A stretch of DNA of 64,000 nt, taken from assembly GCA_001244265.2 (NCBI GenBank), contig CDLV01000005.1:868001-932000 (forward strand), written 5' to 3'. The notes under the pieces were generated by a model that ran no database searches, was not told where the DNA came from, and was given only the letters and a program-made list of their open reading frames with translations. The stretch comes from Microbotryum violaceum (lineage: Eukaryota). Both the position numbers and the translations under genes were made by a program. Each line of letters begins with the position of its first letter. Position 1 is the first letter of the stretch. This document shows positions 40,419-46,672 of the stretch, in pieces.

Positions 40419-42844
40419 GGTACGGAATCAGCTGCAGTAGAATGTGTACCTACTATGACGTTCTACTCAGACAGTGCTTTTGAGCCGAAGTTTTCGTTCT
40501 TTTTCACTTCGTATTGCAATCACCAGTCGTGCTTTGGCAAGGGAATTGTCGCGGCAACGCCAGTGGGCCATCTTCCGATGGATTAGTCAGCGCTCGATCT
40601 CGTCGAGAGGTTCACGCCAGCGACGCAAGGAAGAGACGGAAGTTGGACGCCTGCCAAACGCCGAAATTGGTGCTCAATCAGTACCGATTATACAGGACTG
40701 CATCTGGAATGGGAAGCCGTGGCAGCCACGTAGCGTGATTTGAATCTCCCTGACAAAAACCTGAGACCATTTATTGATCGCCGATCAAACACCGGCGCTC
40801 GTACACAACGCCTCCTGACTTTGGCTTGAAGCTTGAACGCAGATATCTGAGCAGAGTTGCTGAGAAGCTTCCGGAGTGAGATGTCCAAGTGGGCAGAAGG
40901 CTCTATTTGGCCTGGCGATCCACCTCTGAGCCATTGAAATAAACCAGAACCAGCCAAACCAATTGGGCTCACTGAATATCTCACGAGCACCTCTCAAGGA
41001 AGAAAGGAAGAGAAGATAAGCGATGTCGTACCGTTAGGGTCGATCCCGCCTGAACAACGCACTACTGCTTACTTCAAATGCCCTGGGGATATTAGGGATC
41101 GTCCAAAACGTGACTTTAAGACCTGCACTGGCCGAGGTCCGTCAAATCCTGCATTTTAGTAATTTGTGTCTTGTGTAACCCAAACCGAAATGAATACGGC
41201 CCCAGTCAGTACAAAATCGCTTGGTAGGGTTCGACTCGAGAATAGGGATGCCGTTGGGTACCTGATGGTCCAACAGGCCGAGGAGCTACGTCTTCTCGAC
41301 TGAGCTCTTGAACGTCGCAATTGGAAGACGATGCGAAAAGCGGACAGGGTGGCGCTCGAGGAAGCCATTTGAACCTCGCCGAGAGTACGGAAACGAGAGG
41401 GGTAAAAACCGTCGCATGCCTCGGTGACAGCTCTTTATTAATTTGAAATTGAGCGCAGAGATAGCGAATATAACTTTCGGCCCATCTATCGCGAGAGCAT
41501 GGATTCGGCATCGACTTCCCCATTTGTGCCAACTGCTACCGGACTGATCGGAAATCGAATCGGATCAGCATTGAAATCGTCACTCAAACTCTTGGTCATT
41601 TCCGGAGGTAGTAGCAGATGCTTACCATGAGTCCTTTGTAGCTCGGTAAACTTCAATCCTCATAGATGTTCCTCAGCTCCCTCCTCTGCCGTCCAAAAAG
41701 TCGCTCGAATAGGGCAATCTCTCACATAGTGTGGGGGAGGTGTGAAACGATGTGGCGAGTGAAGCCTGCAGGGTTAAAGATGCCATAGCGGCCGACCTGA
41801 GGCGGAGAGCGGGAGAGGGAAGGACGTACAAAGAAAGGGGCAAGGCTGGTGAGGTCGTCGCAGCGTAATAGCGTGATCTGCTCTGTCCGGCGGATCATGG
41901 AACGCCGGCCAATGTCGGCGAGCTCCGTGGCCCCTAGTCGCTGCGGAAGCGCTGAAGATGCTGCCGACATCTGTCACTACAGTTGGTTTGAACGATGGTT
42001 CGAATAATAATCGTGAAACCTCTCCTGAGCTTCTGAGCCAAAACCCTCTCAGAACAGTGACGTTAAGCCACATGGTCCGTCCCTGTATCTGTTGAGATTA
42101 TCCGTTAGGAGTTTTTAATGAAGAGCTGTCACCTGCGCTAGCCCCGCCTCAAAAACTGTGGGGAGCCTTCACCTGCGCTCATCCCCCCTCGTAAAAGACA
42201 TCAACGAGTCAGTTCTTCTAAAACACGAGCCTGCGCAAACTTGCAAACAATCGCGCTCAAACGACTCCAGCCCAAAATTTCCATCTGCGACTACCTCGGC
42301 ACCCAGGCCGCCGCAGGCGGCTTCAAGTTATGCACCAATACAAGGCTTGGACTCGATCATGCTGCGTCGATATATCTCCCCCCATCCCGTCTTCACTCCT
42401 GTGTAGCTATATGAGGCATTGTTTCGAACCATGAGTGTTGATCGAGTCAAGGTGCTTCAGACTTTTCCCCGCGACCGACTCCGACTCGCGATCGCCGCAC
42501 GTCGTCGATCGAGCAGCAGCTGCAGTGCATGCAGTGAGTCACAACCGTTACCTCAAATCCAGTATGTCGTAGTGTTCTCAGGGCGATGAATGTTTTTTTT
42601 TTTATGGTGTTCTTTGTAGTGTGTGTTTATATAACCTCTACTGAAATCAGGTGTACTGCTCAACTTTCCTGCTATCTGAATTTTATTATCCCGTTGATCT
42701 AACGGTCCACACAGGTGCACAGGTCCCCATTACTACGAAATCGCATTCGGGCCTCCAGCTCGTCCGCCTCCGACGTCGTGTTAGCTCTGCTCTCACTCTT
42801 GGTCCTGCCTTTGCTCGGGAACTCCTTTTGTTGTTCTTTCCTTG

Positions 42845-43932
42845 ATGCCCATTGTACTAGCGCGCCGTCGCACCTGCCTCGCCTTTACACTCGCCCTCGT
42901 CGCTGCCTCACTCGTGCTCATGGCGCTGCGACCGACGTTGCTCAACTCGTCGTCGAGGATGCTATCCCAGTCAGCTCGGAACGGAGCCGCCCAACTGAGC
43001 AGTGCTCCCCGACCCAAAGTCTTAGGCGCAGCGGCGGACCAATTGCTCAAGCAGCAGCAGCCGCCGCCAGCAGCAGCAGCTCCTGCTCGGGCTCAGCCTG
43101 CTGCCGCTCCGGACGGAGGGGTCGGAGGCGCCCCTCTTCCTCCGTCCCGACCGTTCTCCAACCAAGCCGCTGCCCAAGCCCAACGCCCCGCCAATCCCGA
43201 ACCCGCTACGCCACCCCAAGCAGACAACAAGATGTCCGTCAAGCAGACCGTCGACAAGCACATCAAGGACGGCCACGTCGTCGTCTTTTCAAAGTCGTAC
43301 GTCTGTTCCATCCGCACTACGCTGACTAATGAAGCCACGGCTCCCTTCCTCCCCTGGCGAGCACTACTCGTCTCGACACCATACAAGCAATATGCTGACC
43401 ACGTAGTGCGCTGTATATGACTGGCATCAGGTACTGCCCTTATTGTGAGTGACCACCCCTTTTGTGATCATGTCCTTGCCTCGGCATCTGACCCAGAGCG
43501 TCTCGATCGTTCGATGTCGTCATCCACCCTTTCGCCGATCCACTCCACAGGCAAAGCTACCAAGCAGCTCTTGAGTCAACTCGACGCCAAGGCCACTGTC
43601 TTTGAGCTGGATCAGATGGAAGAAGGTGAGCCTGCGGTGTGGATGTCGTGCCGATCTGTCCTTTCATGGTACGGCGCTGACCCTAATTGCCCCGCCTGCC
43701 AGGCTCGGACTGGCAAGCTTACCTCGGTGAGAAGACCGGCCAGAGGACCGTGCCTTCCGTTTGGATCGATGGCGAGTTCATCGGTAAGCTCCGCTCCGGA
43801 GCATATCCGATTCACGGTGCATTACTGTCTAGCTGATATGGATGCCATACCTCTTGTCAACCTCAAGGCGGGAACTCGGACGTGCAATCCGCCCACGGCT
43901 CGGGCAAGTTGCAAAAGCTCCTCAAGCAGTAA
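42845..43932 (+). CDS. Dithiol glutaredoxin (CPYC) with N-terminal extension
   Basis: VVVFSKS/YCPY/CKATK, GQRTVPSVWIDGEFI/GGNSD, ending KLQKLLKQ* (TAA at 43930-43932). Confidence 0.93.
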
Positions 43933-44583
43933 GGCCTTTTTTGCCCCTCTGCGACCCTTTTACATACCTGCCCAGCGCAAGCCACTGTCATATTGCAATG
44001 TCAACATCGTCACACACTTGTGCGAGCTTGTGATCGAGTGTGTGCCAAGCGAGCGGACAAGGTTGCATACTGACAAATTCTCACCCTGGGCTCTCTTTGG
44101 GCCGTATTGCTCTTGAATCCGACAGAGGCGGCAAGCTGTAATTTTGAAGGAACGAGAGGCGAAAATATTCTGGTGTGATGGATCGAGACCGTTCGTCCTG
44201 GAACACCACAGCATTACGGATCGAGGACCGAAGGCCCCGAGGCTCCGGAGCAGGGTTGTGCGAGAAGGGCTGTGACTGTGATTCGAGCAAGCACGCTGTA
44301 GAAAGCCCTAGGGCTGTGAGAGATGGCTAGAAAATCCTAGCAGGGGGAAAATGAATTTGAAAGCCCTCGGCGAGAATCAGTGTCTGGGCATCTACCATTC
44401 AGTCCTCCAAGGTCCGTGCGCGATGACGACGCGCTGAGATCTCGTCGTGCGGGGCTGCCAGAGGCGGTTTTGACTTTTGGCCACGACCTCGTACGCTCGG
44501 CTCGCGAAGGCTTTCCATCAAGGCGTGGCTGGGGTGCACGTCCACTTGACAGGGCTTCAATCTGGGTGGTGATAGTGTGAGGA

Positions 44584-46381
44584 ATGTGAGTCCTAGTCAT
44601 GGACGCTGGTTCAGCGCACAGGGTCGAACCTCCAGGATCGCTCAACTGACGTCGCGTGCGATCGCCTCCGTGCTCCATGACTTGCTCCCCTCTAACTCGC
44701 ACAGGGCCGAACTCCTCCCTTACATCTACCACGAGCGTTCCTCGTCCCCAATCTCTGACGATTGGGGCCATCACGCGATTAACAACCTCTTGCAACGAGC
44801 TGCATTTCGACCGCACGATCTGGCTTTAATCGCCTGTGACTCCCATCCCGAGCCAGACGAACACGACGCTGATGACGACGACGATGACGACGACAACGAG
44901 GCCGTCGACGAAGAAAAGTGGCTCACACAAGATCGTCGGAATGAGGCATGGAACTGTCATGCGCCAAGCAGGTATACGACCCCAACAGGTACATGCCGGT
45001 TCTTCTACGCGGTTGTAGATCCCTGTTCCTGAGAACGGCGCAATCCTGGGGGGTCCGTCTCGGCGTTCGAAAGACAATGCTGACCGTTGCTGCCTCGCCT
45101 TCCGGACTTTGACCAGTGATGAAAAAGACTGCGGGAAAGTACCACATATTTTTCAACTCTTCTTCTGATTTTGAAGTGTACAAGCGTCATCCAGAGTAAG
45201 TGATCTGGCTTCCCTGACCGGAGGACGGTTCCCGCCGACTCGAGCTGACCCGCGCTTTCTCCTTCGGTGCCCGACTTGCAGGGTGCTGGATGCCTTCATG
45301 TTGACGAACGAGTCTCATTGGATCACGATACGGTAAGAGCTCTACATCATATTCCACTCTTGTCCACCTCTAGCTGTACGCTGAGTCGATGGATATTCCC
45401 TTGGCTCAGGCGTTTTGGATCGTCAGAATGGTTCTACAACCTCGACTCTCGCCTCCCCCAACCTGGGTTGATCCCACGAACCGAGCTAAGACAGACCCTT
45501 AGGATGGCGAAAGCAATTGGTGAGTTTCGTTATCTCTCACCATGGGCCCACCCCAGTCGTTGACCACAGACTATCTCCCAATAGGCTATACCGTTTTTGT
45601 TTGCGAGCCGACGCTCGGCTCTGGTTTTCCACCATGTGGCGGCGGCCAGGCAAGCACGTCAAACCTCAACTGGATGGGCAGACTGCCGGGATCAACATCG
45701 ACTTCCCACAACACCCTTGCGATGAACGGCCACCTTGACCCCAATCTTGACCCCCAACCCAACGACCCGCGCCGATCGACAACCTCGAGCAATGGCAAAG
45801 GGAAACGGCGCATGATCGACGAGGAGGACTTGACGGATGAGGATGGCGATGACGACGACGTGATCATTGATGATGGAGACGCCGACGAAGACGACGACGT
45901 CATCATCGTCGAGGACTCTGATAGACAGAACGGAGGAGGAGGAAGAATGAACCCGTCGGCGAAACGAACTCGAGGGGGAGAAGCCAAACGCAAGAAACGA
46001 CGTTCCGATTATGGTGAAGATGTTGGTGGTGGAGTAGGAAACGATGGATCATCGTCGACACCACCCACGAACATGGCATCGACTTCGAATAGCTCCATTT
46101 CGGCGGCGCCTACGCGAAAAGAAACGTCCGAAGAGGCCCAGATGAGTCGAGCGATCACCGAGTCGATGAAAGCGGCAAGAGCGAACTCGACTTCGACGTC
46201 GACGTCGAATCAATCCCCTGGCCCGAATTCCGAGACGACCGAGGATTTGGAATTGCAACGGGCGCTCAAGGCAAGCTTGCTGGATGATGTCGAAGTCGAC
46301 GAGGATGACCATGCACTTGATGATACCCCTTCGATGGAGGAGCTGAGGAGGAGGAGGATGAATCGGTTCGCGCTCCGATGA
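44584..46381 (+). CDS. Ataxin-3-like Josephin-domain protein with 2 UIMs and a VCP-binding-like motif; catalytic Cys absent
   Basis: MAELLPYIYHER...DDWGHHAINNLLQ, AFMLTNESHWITIR/RFGSSEWFYNLDS and GYTVFV. UIM-like EEAQMSRAITESMK and EDLELQRALKASL, and a C-terminal SMEELRRRRMNRF. Confidence 0.85.
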
Positions 46382-46672
46382 GGTCTCGAGGGCGGGCTTG
46401 ATCGGGTCGGCATATGAGGCCGAGATTCTGTTTTAGCAGATACATTCTGTTTTTTTCTGACGCGCTTTCTACTTCCAATTGTTATATCTCGCTTTGACGG
46501 TCTCTGTACCGATCTCCCTTTTCAATCCGTAGTGCGCGATAACCCGGGCCTCGGACGACTTCGGCCCGGGCTCATCCGGTCTCACGCGATAGCGGGAGCG
46601 GCCGACCGAGTCTAGGTTGACACCGTTCCTATACTAGCTACCGTCTCGAGATCGACTCGCACCTCGACAAAT

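What the first reader, a model, noticed from the sequence alone, without database searches (positions are those of the whole stretch)
44584..46381. Ataxin-3 homolog with catalytic Cys replaced by Trp: candidate pseudo-deubiquitinase/Cdc48 adaptor
Seen: the motif reads IYHERSSSPISDDWGHHAINNLLQ (TGG at 44763-44765). The HW and NLDS motifs, two UIMs and a C-terminal EELRRRR motif are intact, and all splices keep frame. Known: Josephin DUBs use HEKQ...LCAQH..NNLLQ (ataxin-3 Q9 and C14), and ataxin-3 binds p97 through ELRKRR. Inference: both the nucleophile and the oxyanion Gln are lost and the neighbouring residues have also diverged, which argues against a single sequencing error. The protein may be a non-catalytic ubiquitin-chain reader or p97 cofactor. 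It also has an acidic insertion (DADDDDDDDDNE) within the Josephin domain and no polyQ.
Basis: partly seen in the sequence, partly recalled or inferred. Interest (0 to 1): 0.8.

Follow-up and report, generated by a model that had tools for sequence, protein, structure and literature searches.

The report
Catalytically dead ataxin-3 in anther-smut fungi
This anther-smut fungus (Microbotryum) gene is the local version of the deubiquitinase ataxin-3, but its catalytic cysteine has been replaced by tryptophan across the genus while its ubiquitin- and Cdc48-binding tail stays conserved, so it most likely acts as a binder, not an enzyme.

Summary
Window 44584-46381 (+) holds a six-exon, 440-aa ataxin-3 ortholog of Microbotryum. 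TGG at 44763-44765 sits where 81 of 83 homologs have the catalytic Cys; the other 2 are N-truncated models. The oxyanion Gln and the DD[ST]GFFS block are also gone.

- **Not an error:** three named Microbotryum species carry Trp, and so does an independent DNA run.
- **Transcribed:** spliced RNA contigs of a relative confirm all five introns and a start codon split AT|G.
- **Public models are wrong at this locus:** the same contigs give no support to the public model that fuses the upstream glutaredoxin gene.
- **Loss is lineage-specific:** all other Microbotryomycetes seen, including Leucosporidium, are canonical, and no canonical Microbotryum paralog appeared.
- **Constraint is inverted:** the Josephin stem branch is 3.19 substitutions/site against 0.14-0.67 in relatives. 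Between two Microbotryum species the Josephin domain is 59% identical and the UIM-UIM-VBM tail 89%; canonical pairs show 65-83% and 49-61%.
- **Fold kept:** the model still predicts a Josephin fold.

Best reading: a non-catalytic ubiquitin reader and Cdc48 adaptor. Binding and inactivity are inferred, not tested. I rate it a new variant of a known kind, of moderate interest.

The parts
44484..44585 (+). Exon 1: 5' untranslated leader (at least from 44484) ending in AT, the first two bases of the start codon
   Evidence: RNA contigs of runs X17 and X20 begin at 44484/44494 and join 44585 to 44705. There is no ATG in 44484-44583 and an in-frame TGA lies at 44578-44580.
44705..44988 (+). Exon 2: G of the start codon, the former active-site helix with Trp21, the acidic insert, and the diverged DD[ST]GFFS region
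   Evidence: Josephin 27 bits; joints 44585>44705 and 44985>45114, cut +3.
44763..44765 (+). TGG, Trp21, at the position of the catalytic Cys
   Evidence: profile register. In the AlphaFold model the helix starts at this residue. Unchanged in DNA run X14.
44850..44915 (+). Acidic insert (residues 50-71, with a run of Asp) in the helical-hairpin region of the Josephin fold
   Evidence: low model confidence, pLDDT about 57; also present in M. intermedium.
45117..45195 (+). Exon 3 (middle of the Josephin domain)
   Evidence: joints.
45282..45332 (+). Exon 4, carrying the retained catalytic-triad His (His134 in SHW)
   Evidence: joints 45195>45282 and 45331>45409.
45410..45519 (+). Exon 5, carrying the retained Asn (FYNLDS, residues 147-152)
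   Evidence: (Josephin, E 4.8e-4); joints.
45585..46381 (+). Exon 6: end of the Josephin domain, disordered linker, UIM1, UIM2, VCP/Cdc48-binding motif and the stop codon
45848..45922 (+). Two hydrophobic cores flanked by acidic residues (residues 264-274 and 278-288), resembling SUMO-interacting motifs
   Evidence: similar D-rich [VI]II[VI]E stretches occur in other Microbotryomycetes orthologs. The SIM consensus is recalled and was not tested.
45962..46003 (+). Basic cluster (residues 302-315) resembling a nuclear localisation signal
   Evidence: conserved in M. intermedium. This is inference from the motif only.
46127..46180 (+). UIM1 (residues 357-374)
   Evidence: Predicted helix at P0002 560-577; conserved in M. 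intermedium.
46238..46288 (+). UIM2 (residues 394-410)
   Evidence: Pfam UIM_2 at 13-15.8 bits, below the cut-off of 21; predicted helix at P0002 595-610; identical in M. intermedium.
46331..46378 (+). C-terminal Arg-rich helix (residues 425-440) matching the VCP/Cdc48-binding motif (VBM)
   Evidence: L-R-R-R-R-M-N-R fits the consensus PsiRXXRXXR quoted in PMC5559722. Predicted helix at P0002 628-640. Identical in M. intermedium and present at the C-terminus of orthologs.

Best explanation
This is the single ataxin-3 ortholog of Microbotryum. It has become a pseudo-deubiquitinase.

**What happened (shown by comparison).** On the stem leading to the genus, the Josephin domain lost its nucleophile (Cys to Trp), its oxyanion Gln and the DD[ST]GFFS block. 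It gained an acidic loop and evolved very fast, but it still folds as a Josephin domain.

**What still works (inferred).** The parts kept under strong constraint are the two UIMs and the terminal Arg-rich VBM helix. The inferred mechanism has three steps:
1. The UIMs hold ubiquitin chains.
2. The VBM docks on the N-domain of Cdc48.
3. The bulky Trp fills the former catalytic cleft, so chains are bound and handed on, or shielded, without being cut.

Two acidic-flanked hydrophobic motifs and a basic cluster in the linker hint at SUMO binding and a nuclear site of action. This last point is speculative.
For: **Identity and fold**
- Pfam Josephin scores 85.8 bits against a cut-off of 26.
- The Foldseek top six hits are the Josephin domains of ATXN3L and ATXN3, with E from 6e-11 to 5e-7.

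**Loss of catalytic residues**
- Trp sits where 81 of 83 homologs have Cys; the other 2 are N-truncated.
- In a 25-row alignment, all 23 non-Microbotryum rows have Gln, Cys and DD[ST]GFFS-like blocks. Both Microbotryum rows lack all three.

**Genus-wide and real**
- Trp is in M. lychnidis-dioicae, M. silenes-dioicae and M. intermedium and in DNA run X14.

**Orthology and timing**
- The Microbotryum pair lies inside the Microbotryomycetes clade (SH-aLRT 99) on a stem of 3.19 substitutions/site. End branches of the other clade members are 0.14-0.67.
- Leucosporidium and 30-odd Rhodotorula, Sporobolomyces and Rhodosporidiobolus proteins are canonical.
- None of the 63 organism-named rows among the 83 hits is a Microbotryum protein.

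**Inverted constraint**
- M. lychnidis-dioicae against M. intermedium: Josephin 59%, linker 58%, tail 89%. The last 50 residues are identical.
- Six canonical pairs: Josephin 65-83%, tail 49-61%.

**A live gene**
- Spliced contigs in two runs confirm all five introns. Indels in that relative are in frame, -3 and -12.

**Fold and motifs kept**
- Josephin core pLDDT is 85-96, and helices are predicted at both UIMs and the VBM.
- The VBM fits the consensus PsiRXXRXXR.

**Literature (passages read)**
- A preprint reports that bulky substitutions in a DUB active site exclude the ubiquitin C-terminus, and that Cys-to-Ala abolishes JOSD1 activity (10.64898/2026.10.20.760496).
- Another paper proposes that ataxin-3 unable to process ubiquitin still binds ubiquitinated species through its UIMs and sequesters them (PMC9887036).
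Against: - No activity or binding was measured. Cdc48, ubiquitin and SUMO binding are all inferred from motifs.
- Pfam's UIM_2 model stays below its cut-off (13-15.8 bits against 21). The canonical ortholog P0004 scores the same, 15.5 bits.
- The Josephin domain evolves as fast as the disordered linker (59% against 58%).
- Of the 10 coding differences shown against the RNA relative, 8 change the residue; 3 of these lie in the unreliable poly-Asp tract. The domain may therefore have no function left.
- The annotated M. intermedium protein lacks the exon-5 segment that carries the Asn. I could not tell annotation error from real loss.
- phmmer aligns human Cys14 to Ser18 rather than to Trp21.
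- 77 differences in the RNA relative were not shown, so its codon at 44763-44765 is unverified.
- The paralog search covered annotated proteins of 150-478 aa only. No whole genome was held.
Confidence: 0.65

Rival explanations
1. Relic domain. Only the UIM-UIM-VBM tail still works. The Josephin part has no function of its own and stays open only because the tail must be translated through it.
For: - Josephin identity between two Microbotryum species (59%) equals that of the disordered linker (58%).
- Exon 2 differs from the RNA relative at 25 of 281 bases. The glutaredoxin exon 43701-43782 differs at 1 of 82.
- Among the differences shown, those that change a residue predominate.
- The M. intermedium model lacks the Asn-bearing segment.
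Against: - Conservation inside the domain is patchy in a structural way. The former active-site helix is 23 of 31 identical, and the blocks around His and the last strand are also kept.
- Trp and the S-x-D-W-G-H-H motif are shared across the deepest split seen in the genus.
- The core is predicted with pLDDT 85-96, although that prediction leans on canonical homologs in the alignment.
Confidence: 0.2
2. Cryptic enzyme. The domain still hydrolyses ubiquitin conjugates, for example ester-linked ones, without the canonical Cys. It would use the retained His and Asn together with water or the conserved Ser18.
For: - His134 and the Asn of FYNLDS are retained.
- Ser18 is conserved in both Microbotryum species and is the residue phmmer aligns to human Cys14.
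- In the passages read, a preprint reports weak Ub-Ser esterase activity in the Cys-less pseudo-DUB OTULINL and strong esterase preference in MJD-family enzymes.
- USP53 and USP54 were annotated as pseudoenzymes and found to be active (PMC12037411; abstract seen).
Against: - The same preprint reports that Cys-to-Ala abolishes JOSD1 activity and that bulky active-site substitutions exclude the ubiquitin C-terminus. Trp is the bulkiest residue.
- The oxyanion Gln and the DD[ST]GFFS block are also lost.
- The domain evolves fast.
Confidence: 0.06
3. Glutaredoxin-Josephin fusion protein, as in the public 642-aa model KDE04869.1. The glutaredoxin's last exon would splice from 43929 (CA|GTAAGG) to 44705.
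For: - The public model exists.
- The donor at 43930 is consensus-like and the phase fits.
Against: - RNA contigs of the glutaredoxin gene run on past its TAA stop to 43980 and 44014.
- The Josephin contigs start at 44484/44494 with their own first exon.
- None of the 8 joints listed links 43929 to 44705.
- The other two species' models start independently.
- Orthologs start with M-x-(D/E)-L, just as the split-ATG model does.
- Contigs drop rare forms, so a minor read-through isoform is not excluded.
Confidence: 0.04
4. Artefact or dead gene: a sequencing or assembly error at the codon, or a decaying pseudogene.
For: None beyond the fast evolution of the Josephin part.
Against: - Trp is found in three species' assemblies and in an independent DNA run.
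- The reading frame is open over six exons.
- The transcript is spliced and indels in the relative are in frame.
- The last 50 residues of the tail are identical between distant species.
Confidence: 0.02

Closest known systems
Human ataxin-3 (MJD/Josephin deubiquitinase; Josephin domain structures 1YZB, 2AGA, 2DOS; ATXN3L 3O65)
   Same: - Same fold (Foldseek top hits) and the same Pfam family.
- Same order of parts: Josephin, then UIMs, then an Arg-rich VCP-binding motif.
- His and Asn of the triad are present.
   Different: - Trp stands in place of the catalytic Cys, and the oxyanion Gln is lost.
- The block aligned to the human D-D-S-G-F-F-S-I-Q stretch has diverged.
- There is an acidic insert in the hairpin region.
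- There is no polyQ and no third UIM, and the VBM sits at the very C-terminus.
Canonical ataxin-3 orthologs of other Microbotryomycetes (for example Rhodosporidiobolus ruineniae GAA6041114.1, Leucosporidium creatinivorum P0038, Meredithblackwellia eburnea KAM0750092.1)
   Same: - Same length class (about 410-460 aa) and the same architecture.
- Same C-terminal ...EELRRRRLARFG-type ending, D-rich [VI]II[VI]E linker motif and basic cluster.
- The Microbotryum protein nests among them in the tree.
   Different: - They keep Q-E-P-G-S-M-L-C and DDSGFFS.
- They score about twice as high on the Josephin model (163.5 against 85.8 bits).
- Their Josephin domains are 65-83% identical to each other but only 35-39% identical to this one.
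Pseudo-deubiquitinases such as OTULINL/FAM105A (Asp at the Cys position)
   Same: A DUB fold that has lost the catalytic Cys. The comparison rests on passages in 10.64898/2026.10.20.760496.
   Different: - A different fold family (OTU against Josephin).
- I found no paper that describes a Josephin-family pseudo-DUB. Searches returned 14 and 6 papers, which I judged from titles and abstract openings only.
RHBDL4-type Cdc48/p97 cofactors with a UIM next to a C-terminal VBM
   Same: A ubiquitin-interacting motif placed beside a terminal VBM helix, which forms a p97-ubiquitin-chain bridge according to the review PMC5559722 (passages).
   Different: - RHBDL4 is an active intramembrane protease.
- This protein is soluble and its catalytic domain is disabled.

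Membership tests
Josephin / MJD domain family (Pfam PF02099) | Score above Pfam's gathering cut-off (26 bits) | tested here: met
   85.8 bits for P0002 and 77.4 for P0001. Exon 2 alone scores 27 bits.
Josephin / MJD domain family (Pfam PF02099) | Josephin three-dimensional fold | tested here: met
   AlphaFold core pLDDT is 85-96. The Foldseek top six PDB hits are ATXN3L and ATXN3 Josephin domains (E 6e-11 to 5e-7, TM by target 0.60-0.69), and JOSD2 is at rank 33.
Active MJD cysteine deubiquitinase | Catalytic Cys at the N-terminus of the first helix | tested here: not met
   Trp21 occupies the position. 81 of 83 homologs have Cys there and 2 are truncated. Supported by the profile register and the predicted helix start at Trp. 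One pairwise alignment instead puts Ser18 opposite Cys14; either way there is no Cys.
Active MJD cysteine deubiquitinase | Oxyanion-hole Gln five to seven residues before the Cys | tested here: not met
   The position holds Ser in the window and Cys in M. intermedium. It holds Gln in 23 of 23 other rows.
Active MJD cysteine deubiquitinase | Catalytic His and Asn | tested here: met
   His134 (SHW) and the Asn of FYNLDS align with the nearly invariant columns. The Asn segment is absent from the annotated M. intermedium protein.
Active MJD cysteine deubiquitinase | Conserved DD[ST]GFFS(V/I)Q block. I recall it as bearing ubiquitin-binding site 1; the residue numbers were not in the passages I read. 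| tested here: not met
   Present in 22 of 23 non-Microbotryum rows; the last, P0026, has a variant (GDDGNFSIQV). It is replaced by unrelated residues in both Microbotryum rows.
Active MJD cysteine deubiquitinase | Hydrolysis of ubiquitin conjugates | not testable with these tools
   Needs recombinant protein and Ub-AMC, di-ubiquitin and Ub-ester assays.
UIM-containing ubiquitin readers | Match to a UIM profile; helix with the Ala and Ser signature | tested here: inconclusive
   Pfam UIM_2 scores 13-15.8 bits against a cut-off of 21. The canonical ortholog P0004 scores 15.5. Both segments are predicted helices and are conserved. The signature M-S-R-A-I-T-E-S / L-Q-R-A-L-K-A-S fits a consensus that I recall.
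VBM-type Cdc48/p97 cofactors | Terminal helix matching PsiRXXRXXR | tested here: met
   L-R-R-R-R-M-N-R at residues 429-436 fits the consensus quoted in PMC5559722. It is a predicted helix at the extreme C-terminus, where that review says such motifs usually lie.
VBM-type Cdc48/p97 cofactors | Physical binding to the Cdc48 N-domain | not tested

The most novel reading that the evidence does not exclude
The Josephin fold has not died but changed chemistry. Trp blocks the old thiol site, while His134, the retained Asn and the genus-conserved Ser18 (S-x-D-W-G-H-H) form a Cys-independent hydrolase. That enzyme could be a ubiquitin esterase, or it could act on a different conjugate. It would be delivered to Cdc48 clients by the conserved UIM-VBM tail.
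Probability: 0.05. Interest if true: 0.85.

Novelty: new variant of a known kind. Interest (0 to 1): 0.45.

Why it matters
Pseudo-deubiquitinases are described in other DUB families. My two literature searches found no paper describing one in the Josephin family.

Here evolution has performed the experiment usually done with ataxin-3 C14A, and then kept the result for the life of a genus. The loss comes with a clear signature of which parts still matter: the UIMs and the VBM, not the Josephin core.

That makes the gene a natural separation-of-function allele. It could show what ataxin-3 does as a scaffold on Cdc48/p97 apart from cutting chains, a point the review I read calls unclear.

It also corrects three flawed public gene models at this locus.

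Tried and rejected
- **Whole-genome paralog search:** The paralog question rests on protein databases only.
- **RNA holders:** no listed holder was on record as RNA. Two runs guessed to be RNA turned out to hold spliced contigs of a 90-95% similar relative. Run X16, also guessed RNA, gave only unspliced low-depth pieces over introns and intergenic DNA, so it was not informative on splicing.
- **dN/dS:** could not be computed. 77 differences were not shown, and DNA run X14 differs at only 2 coding sites, both changing a residue.
- **Alternative first exon of SGY93420.1 (44351-44410):** rejected. It is in frame only with a 1-base insertion present in X14 but not in the window. The canonical-Josephin HMM gives no hit there, and the RNA contigs use 44484-44585 instead.
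- **Alternative catalytic exon:** a six-frame scan of all 64 kb with a canonical Josephin HMM (--max, E up to 10) hit only this gene's own exons above noise.
- **Literature:** MVLG_04729 occurs in no searchable paper.
- **Supplements:** these are closed. Expression tables of Microbotryum transcriptome papers, which I recall exist but did not see, might hold values for this gene.
- **Rows dropped from the 25-row alignment and the tree:** of the 30 hits, I dropped P0006, P0007, P0010 and P0022 (C-terminal fragments), P0011 (replaced by its cluster mate P0033), P0012 (1550 aa, low-complexity match) and P0025 (its model lacks the N-terminal helix).
Full report
**1. What is in the sequence**

The stretch 44584-46381 on the + strand holds a six-exon gene. 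Joining 44584-44585, 44705-44988, 45117-45195, 45282-45332, 45410-45519 and 45585-46381 gives a 1323-nt reading frame of 440 residues, with GT..AG at all five introns.

The start codon is split. AT at 44584-44585 is followed by gtgagt, and the G comes from 44705 after a 119-nt intron. An in-frame TGA lies two codons upstream.

**2. Transcript evidence and the public gene models**

The window matches Microbotryum. From Ala2 onward, the protein is letter for letter the C-terminal 439 residues of M. lychnidis-dioicae KDE04869.1 (P0002, 642 aa). It is 99% identical over exon 2 to M. silenes-dioicae SGY93420.1 (P0001, 472 aa).

The three public models disagree at the 5' end:
- P0002 fuses the upstream glutaredoxin gene (42920-43929) through a 775-nt intron.
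- P0001 uses another first exon (44351-44410).
- M. intermedium P0003 starts differently again.

I laid contigs of four public runs on 42800-46600. Two runs of one study, 90-95% like the window and hence a relative, hold spliced contigs. Their joints are 44585>44705, 44985>45114 (cut +3), 45195>45282, 45331>45409 (cut +1) and 45518>45584 (cut +1), all GT..AG. These are exactly my five introns.

Further points from the same call:
- The first piece of these contigs starts at 44484/44494, and that leader holds no ATG. The split ATG is therefore the first start codon.
- The glutaredoxin contigs run on past the TAA stop to 43980 and 44014.
- No joint links 43929 to 44705. The fusion has no support here, although contigs can miss rare isoforms.
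- P0001's first exon is in frame only with a 1-base insertion that DNA run X14 has and the window lacks.
- P0001 also keeps 36 nt of intron 4, which the RNA joints contradict.

**3. Is the Trp real?**

Trp is in three named species. DNA run X14, from a different study than the probable source, spans the whole stretch in one contig with 6 substitutions. All 6 are listed and none is at 44763-44765. Sixteen runs from several studies hold at least half of the stretch's words.

For the RNA relative I cannot say what the codon is, because 77 differences were not shown.

**4. What family, and what is missing**

Pfam's Josephin model scores 85.8 bits on P0002 against a cut-off of 26. The canonical Rhodosporidiobolus ortholog scores 163.5.

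A full HMMER scan of 1.84 billion representatives found only 30 proteins at E up to 0.001. The nearest outside the genus are Microbotryomycetes yeasts.

In a 25-row alignment, all 23 non-Microbotryum rows carry Gln, then Cys at the head of the C-x-Q-H-x-x-N-x-L-x-Q helix. They also carry the DD[ST]GFFS block, with one row a variant. Both Microbotryum rows have lost all three.

A second search from a canonical relative (Phenoliferia, residues 1-200) gave 83 proteins. Of these, 81 have the Cys and 2 are N-truncated. None of the 63 rows with an organism name is Microbotryum. A canonical paralog is therefore not in the annotated proteomes, within the 150-478 aa range searched.

A six-frame HMM scan of the whole window found no other Josephin-like exon.

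His134 and the Asn of FYNLDS are kept.

One caveat on register. phmmer against human ataxin-3 aligns Cys14 with Ser18 and treats D-D-W as an insert. The multiple alignment, the Pfam register and the predicted helix start at Trp all favour Cys to Trp. In neither register is there a Cys.

**5. Evolutionary pattern**

In a maximum-likelihood tree of the Josephin domain (25 rows, 196 columns, quick search), the two Microbotryum rows pair (SH-aLRT 100) inside the Microbotryomycetes clade (99). Their stem is 3.19 substitutions per site, against 0.14-0.67 for the other members' end branches.

| Comparison | Josephin | Linker | Last 90 residues |
|---|---|---|---|
| Six canonical pairs | 65-83% | 30-56% | 49-61% |
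| M. lychnidis-dioicae vs M. intermedium | 59% | 58% | 89% |
| Window protein vs canonical orthologs | 35-39% | 23-37% | 39-51% |

The final 50 residues are identical between the two Microbotryum species. The tail of the window protein is as similar to canonical tails as canonical tails are to each other, while its Josephin domain is far less similar.

The acceleration is therefore specific to the Josephin domain, and constraint has moved to the tail. Within the domain, the former active-site helix (23 of 31 identical) and the blocks around His and the last strand are the best kept.

**6. Structure**

I ran AlphaFold2 on P0002 with a 26-row alignment:
- The Josephin core has pLDDT 85-96.
- The acidic insert is at about 57.
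- The linker is disordered.
- Helices fall exactly at UIM1, UIM2 and the terminal Arg-rich motif.

Foldseek's top six PDB hits are ATXN3L and ATXN3 Josephin domains. The glutaredoxin part hits glutaredoxins. The confidence partly reflects the canonical homologs in the alignment.

**7. Mechanism**

*Shown:* a Josephin fold without its nucleophile and oxyanion residue; a conserved, transcribed and spliced gene; a highly constrained UIM-UIM-VBM tail.

*From the literature (passages read):*
- The VBM is an Arg-rich helix with consensus PsiRXXRXXR. It binds the p97 N-domain groove and usually lies at a protein terminus (PMC5559722). L-R-R-R-R-M-N-R at residues 429-436 fits.
- Ataxin-3 that cannot process ubiquitin is proposed to bind ubiquitinated species through its UIMs and sequester them (PMC9887036).
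- Bulky substitutions in a DUB active site exclude the ubiquitin C-terminus, and Cys-to-Ala abolishes JOSD1 activity (preprint 10.64898/2026.10.20.760496).

*Inferred:* the protein binds ubiquitin chains and Cdc48 and passes on or shields clients without trimming.

*Speculative:* two acidic-flanked hydrophobic motifs and a basic cluster in the linker suggest SUMO binding and a nuclear role. Both are also seen in the canonical fungal orthologs. Human ataxin-3 is recruited by SUMO through a motif in its Josephin domain (PMC5391139).

**8. Rivals**

- The strongest rival is that the Josephin part is a functionless relic kept open for the sake of the tail. Its rate equals the linker's, and the few visible differences mostly change residues.
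- A cryptic Cys-independent activity is unlikely but not excluded. His, Asn and Ser18 are kept, and OTULINL offers a precedent.
- The glutaredoxin fusion, a sequencing artefact and a pseudogene are each contradicted.

**9. Novelty**

The gene is annotated automatically as a Josephin protein or 'ubiquitinyl hydrolase 1'.
- No searchable paper names MVLG_04729.
- Searches for Josephin with pseudo-DUB or pseudoenzyme returned 14 and 6 papers. By title and abstract opening, these only co-mention the terms.

I rate it a new variant of a known kind: a lineage-wide pseudo-DUB in the MJD family.

**10. Limits**

- No biochemical test was possible.
- No whole-genome search was possible.
- No codon-based selection test could be done.
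- The RNA evidence comes from one study of a relative, not from the window's own species.
- The M. intermedium exon-5 gap is unresolved.

Noticed in passing
window 42920-43932 (+), micro-exon 43431-43444: The upstream gene is a CPYC-type glutaredoxin (Pfam PF00462, 66.5 bits) with a long N-terminal extension. Its active-site motif is encoded on a 14-nt micro-exon flanked by AG and GT. RNA contigs join 43300 to 43551 with 10 extra letters in between, which fits that micro-exon.
   Followed up: partly
window 43929-44705; 44351-44410; 45333-45372: All three public protein models of this locus appear flawed. KDE04869.1 fuses glutaredoxin to the Josephin gene. SGY93420.1 uses a first exon that is in frame only with a 1-base indel, and it also keeps 36 nt of intron 4. 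The M. intermedium model lacks the segment equivalent to exon 5.
   Followed up: partly
window 44584-44705: The start codon is split AT|G by a 119-nt intron. The junction is seen in spliced contigs of two runs.
   Followed up: yes
window 45848-46003: The linker holds two acidic-flanked [VI]-rich cores that resemble SUMO-interacting motifs, followed by a KRKKRR-type basic cluster. Similar motifs occur in canonical Microbotryomycetes orthologs. This is motif-level inference only.
   Followed up: no
window 44856-44896: The GAC/GAT run that encodes the poly-Asp tract attracts pieces of unrelated contigs: depth spikes and there are loose ends on both sides. Differences reported inside it are therefore unreliable.
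   Followed up: no
protein P0006 (181 aa, unnamed source): This is a C-terminal fragment whose tail is the closest to Microbotryum's outside the genus (E 3e-16). Its N-terminus is missing, so it cannot show whether its Josephin domain is canonical. A full-length copy could date the loss of the Cys.
   Followed up: no
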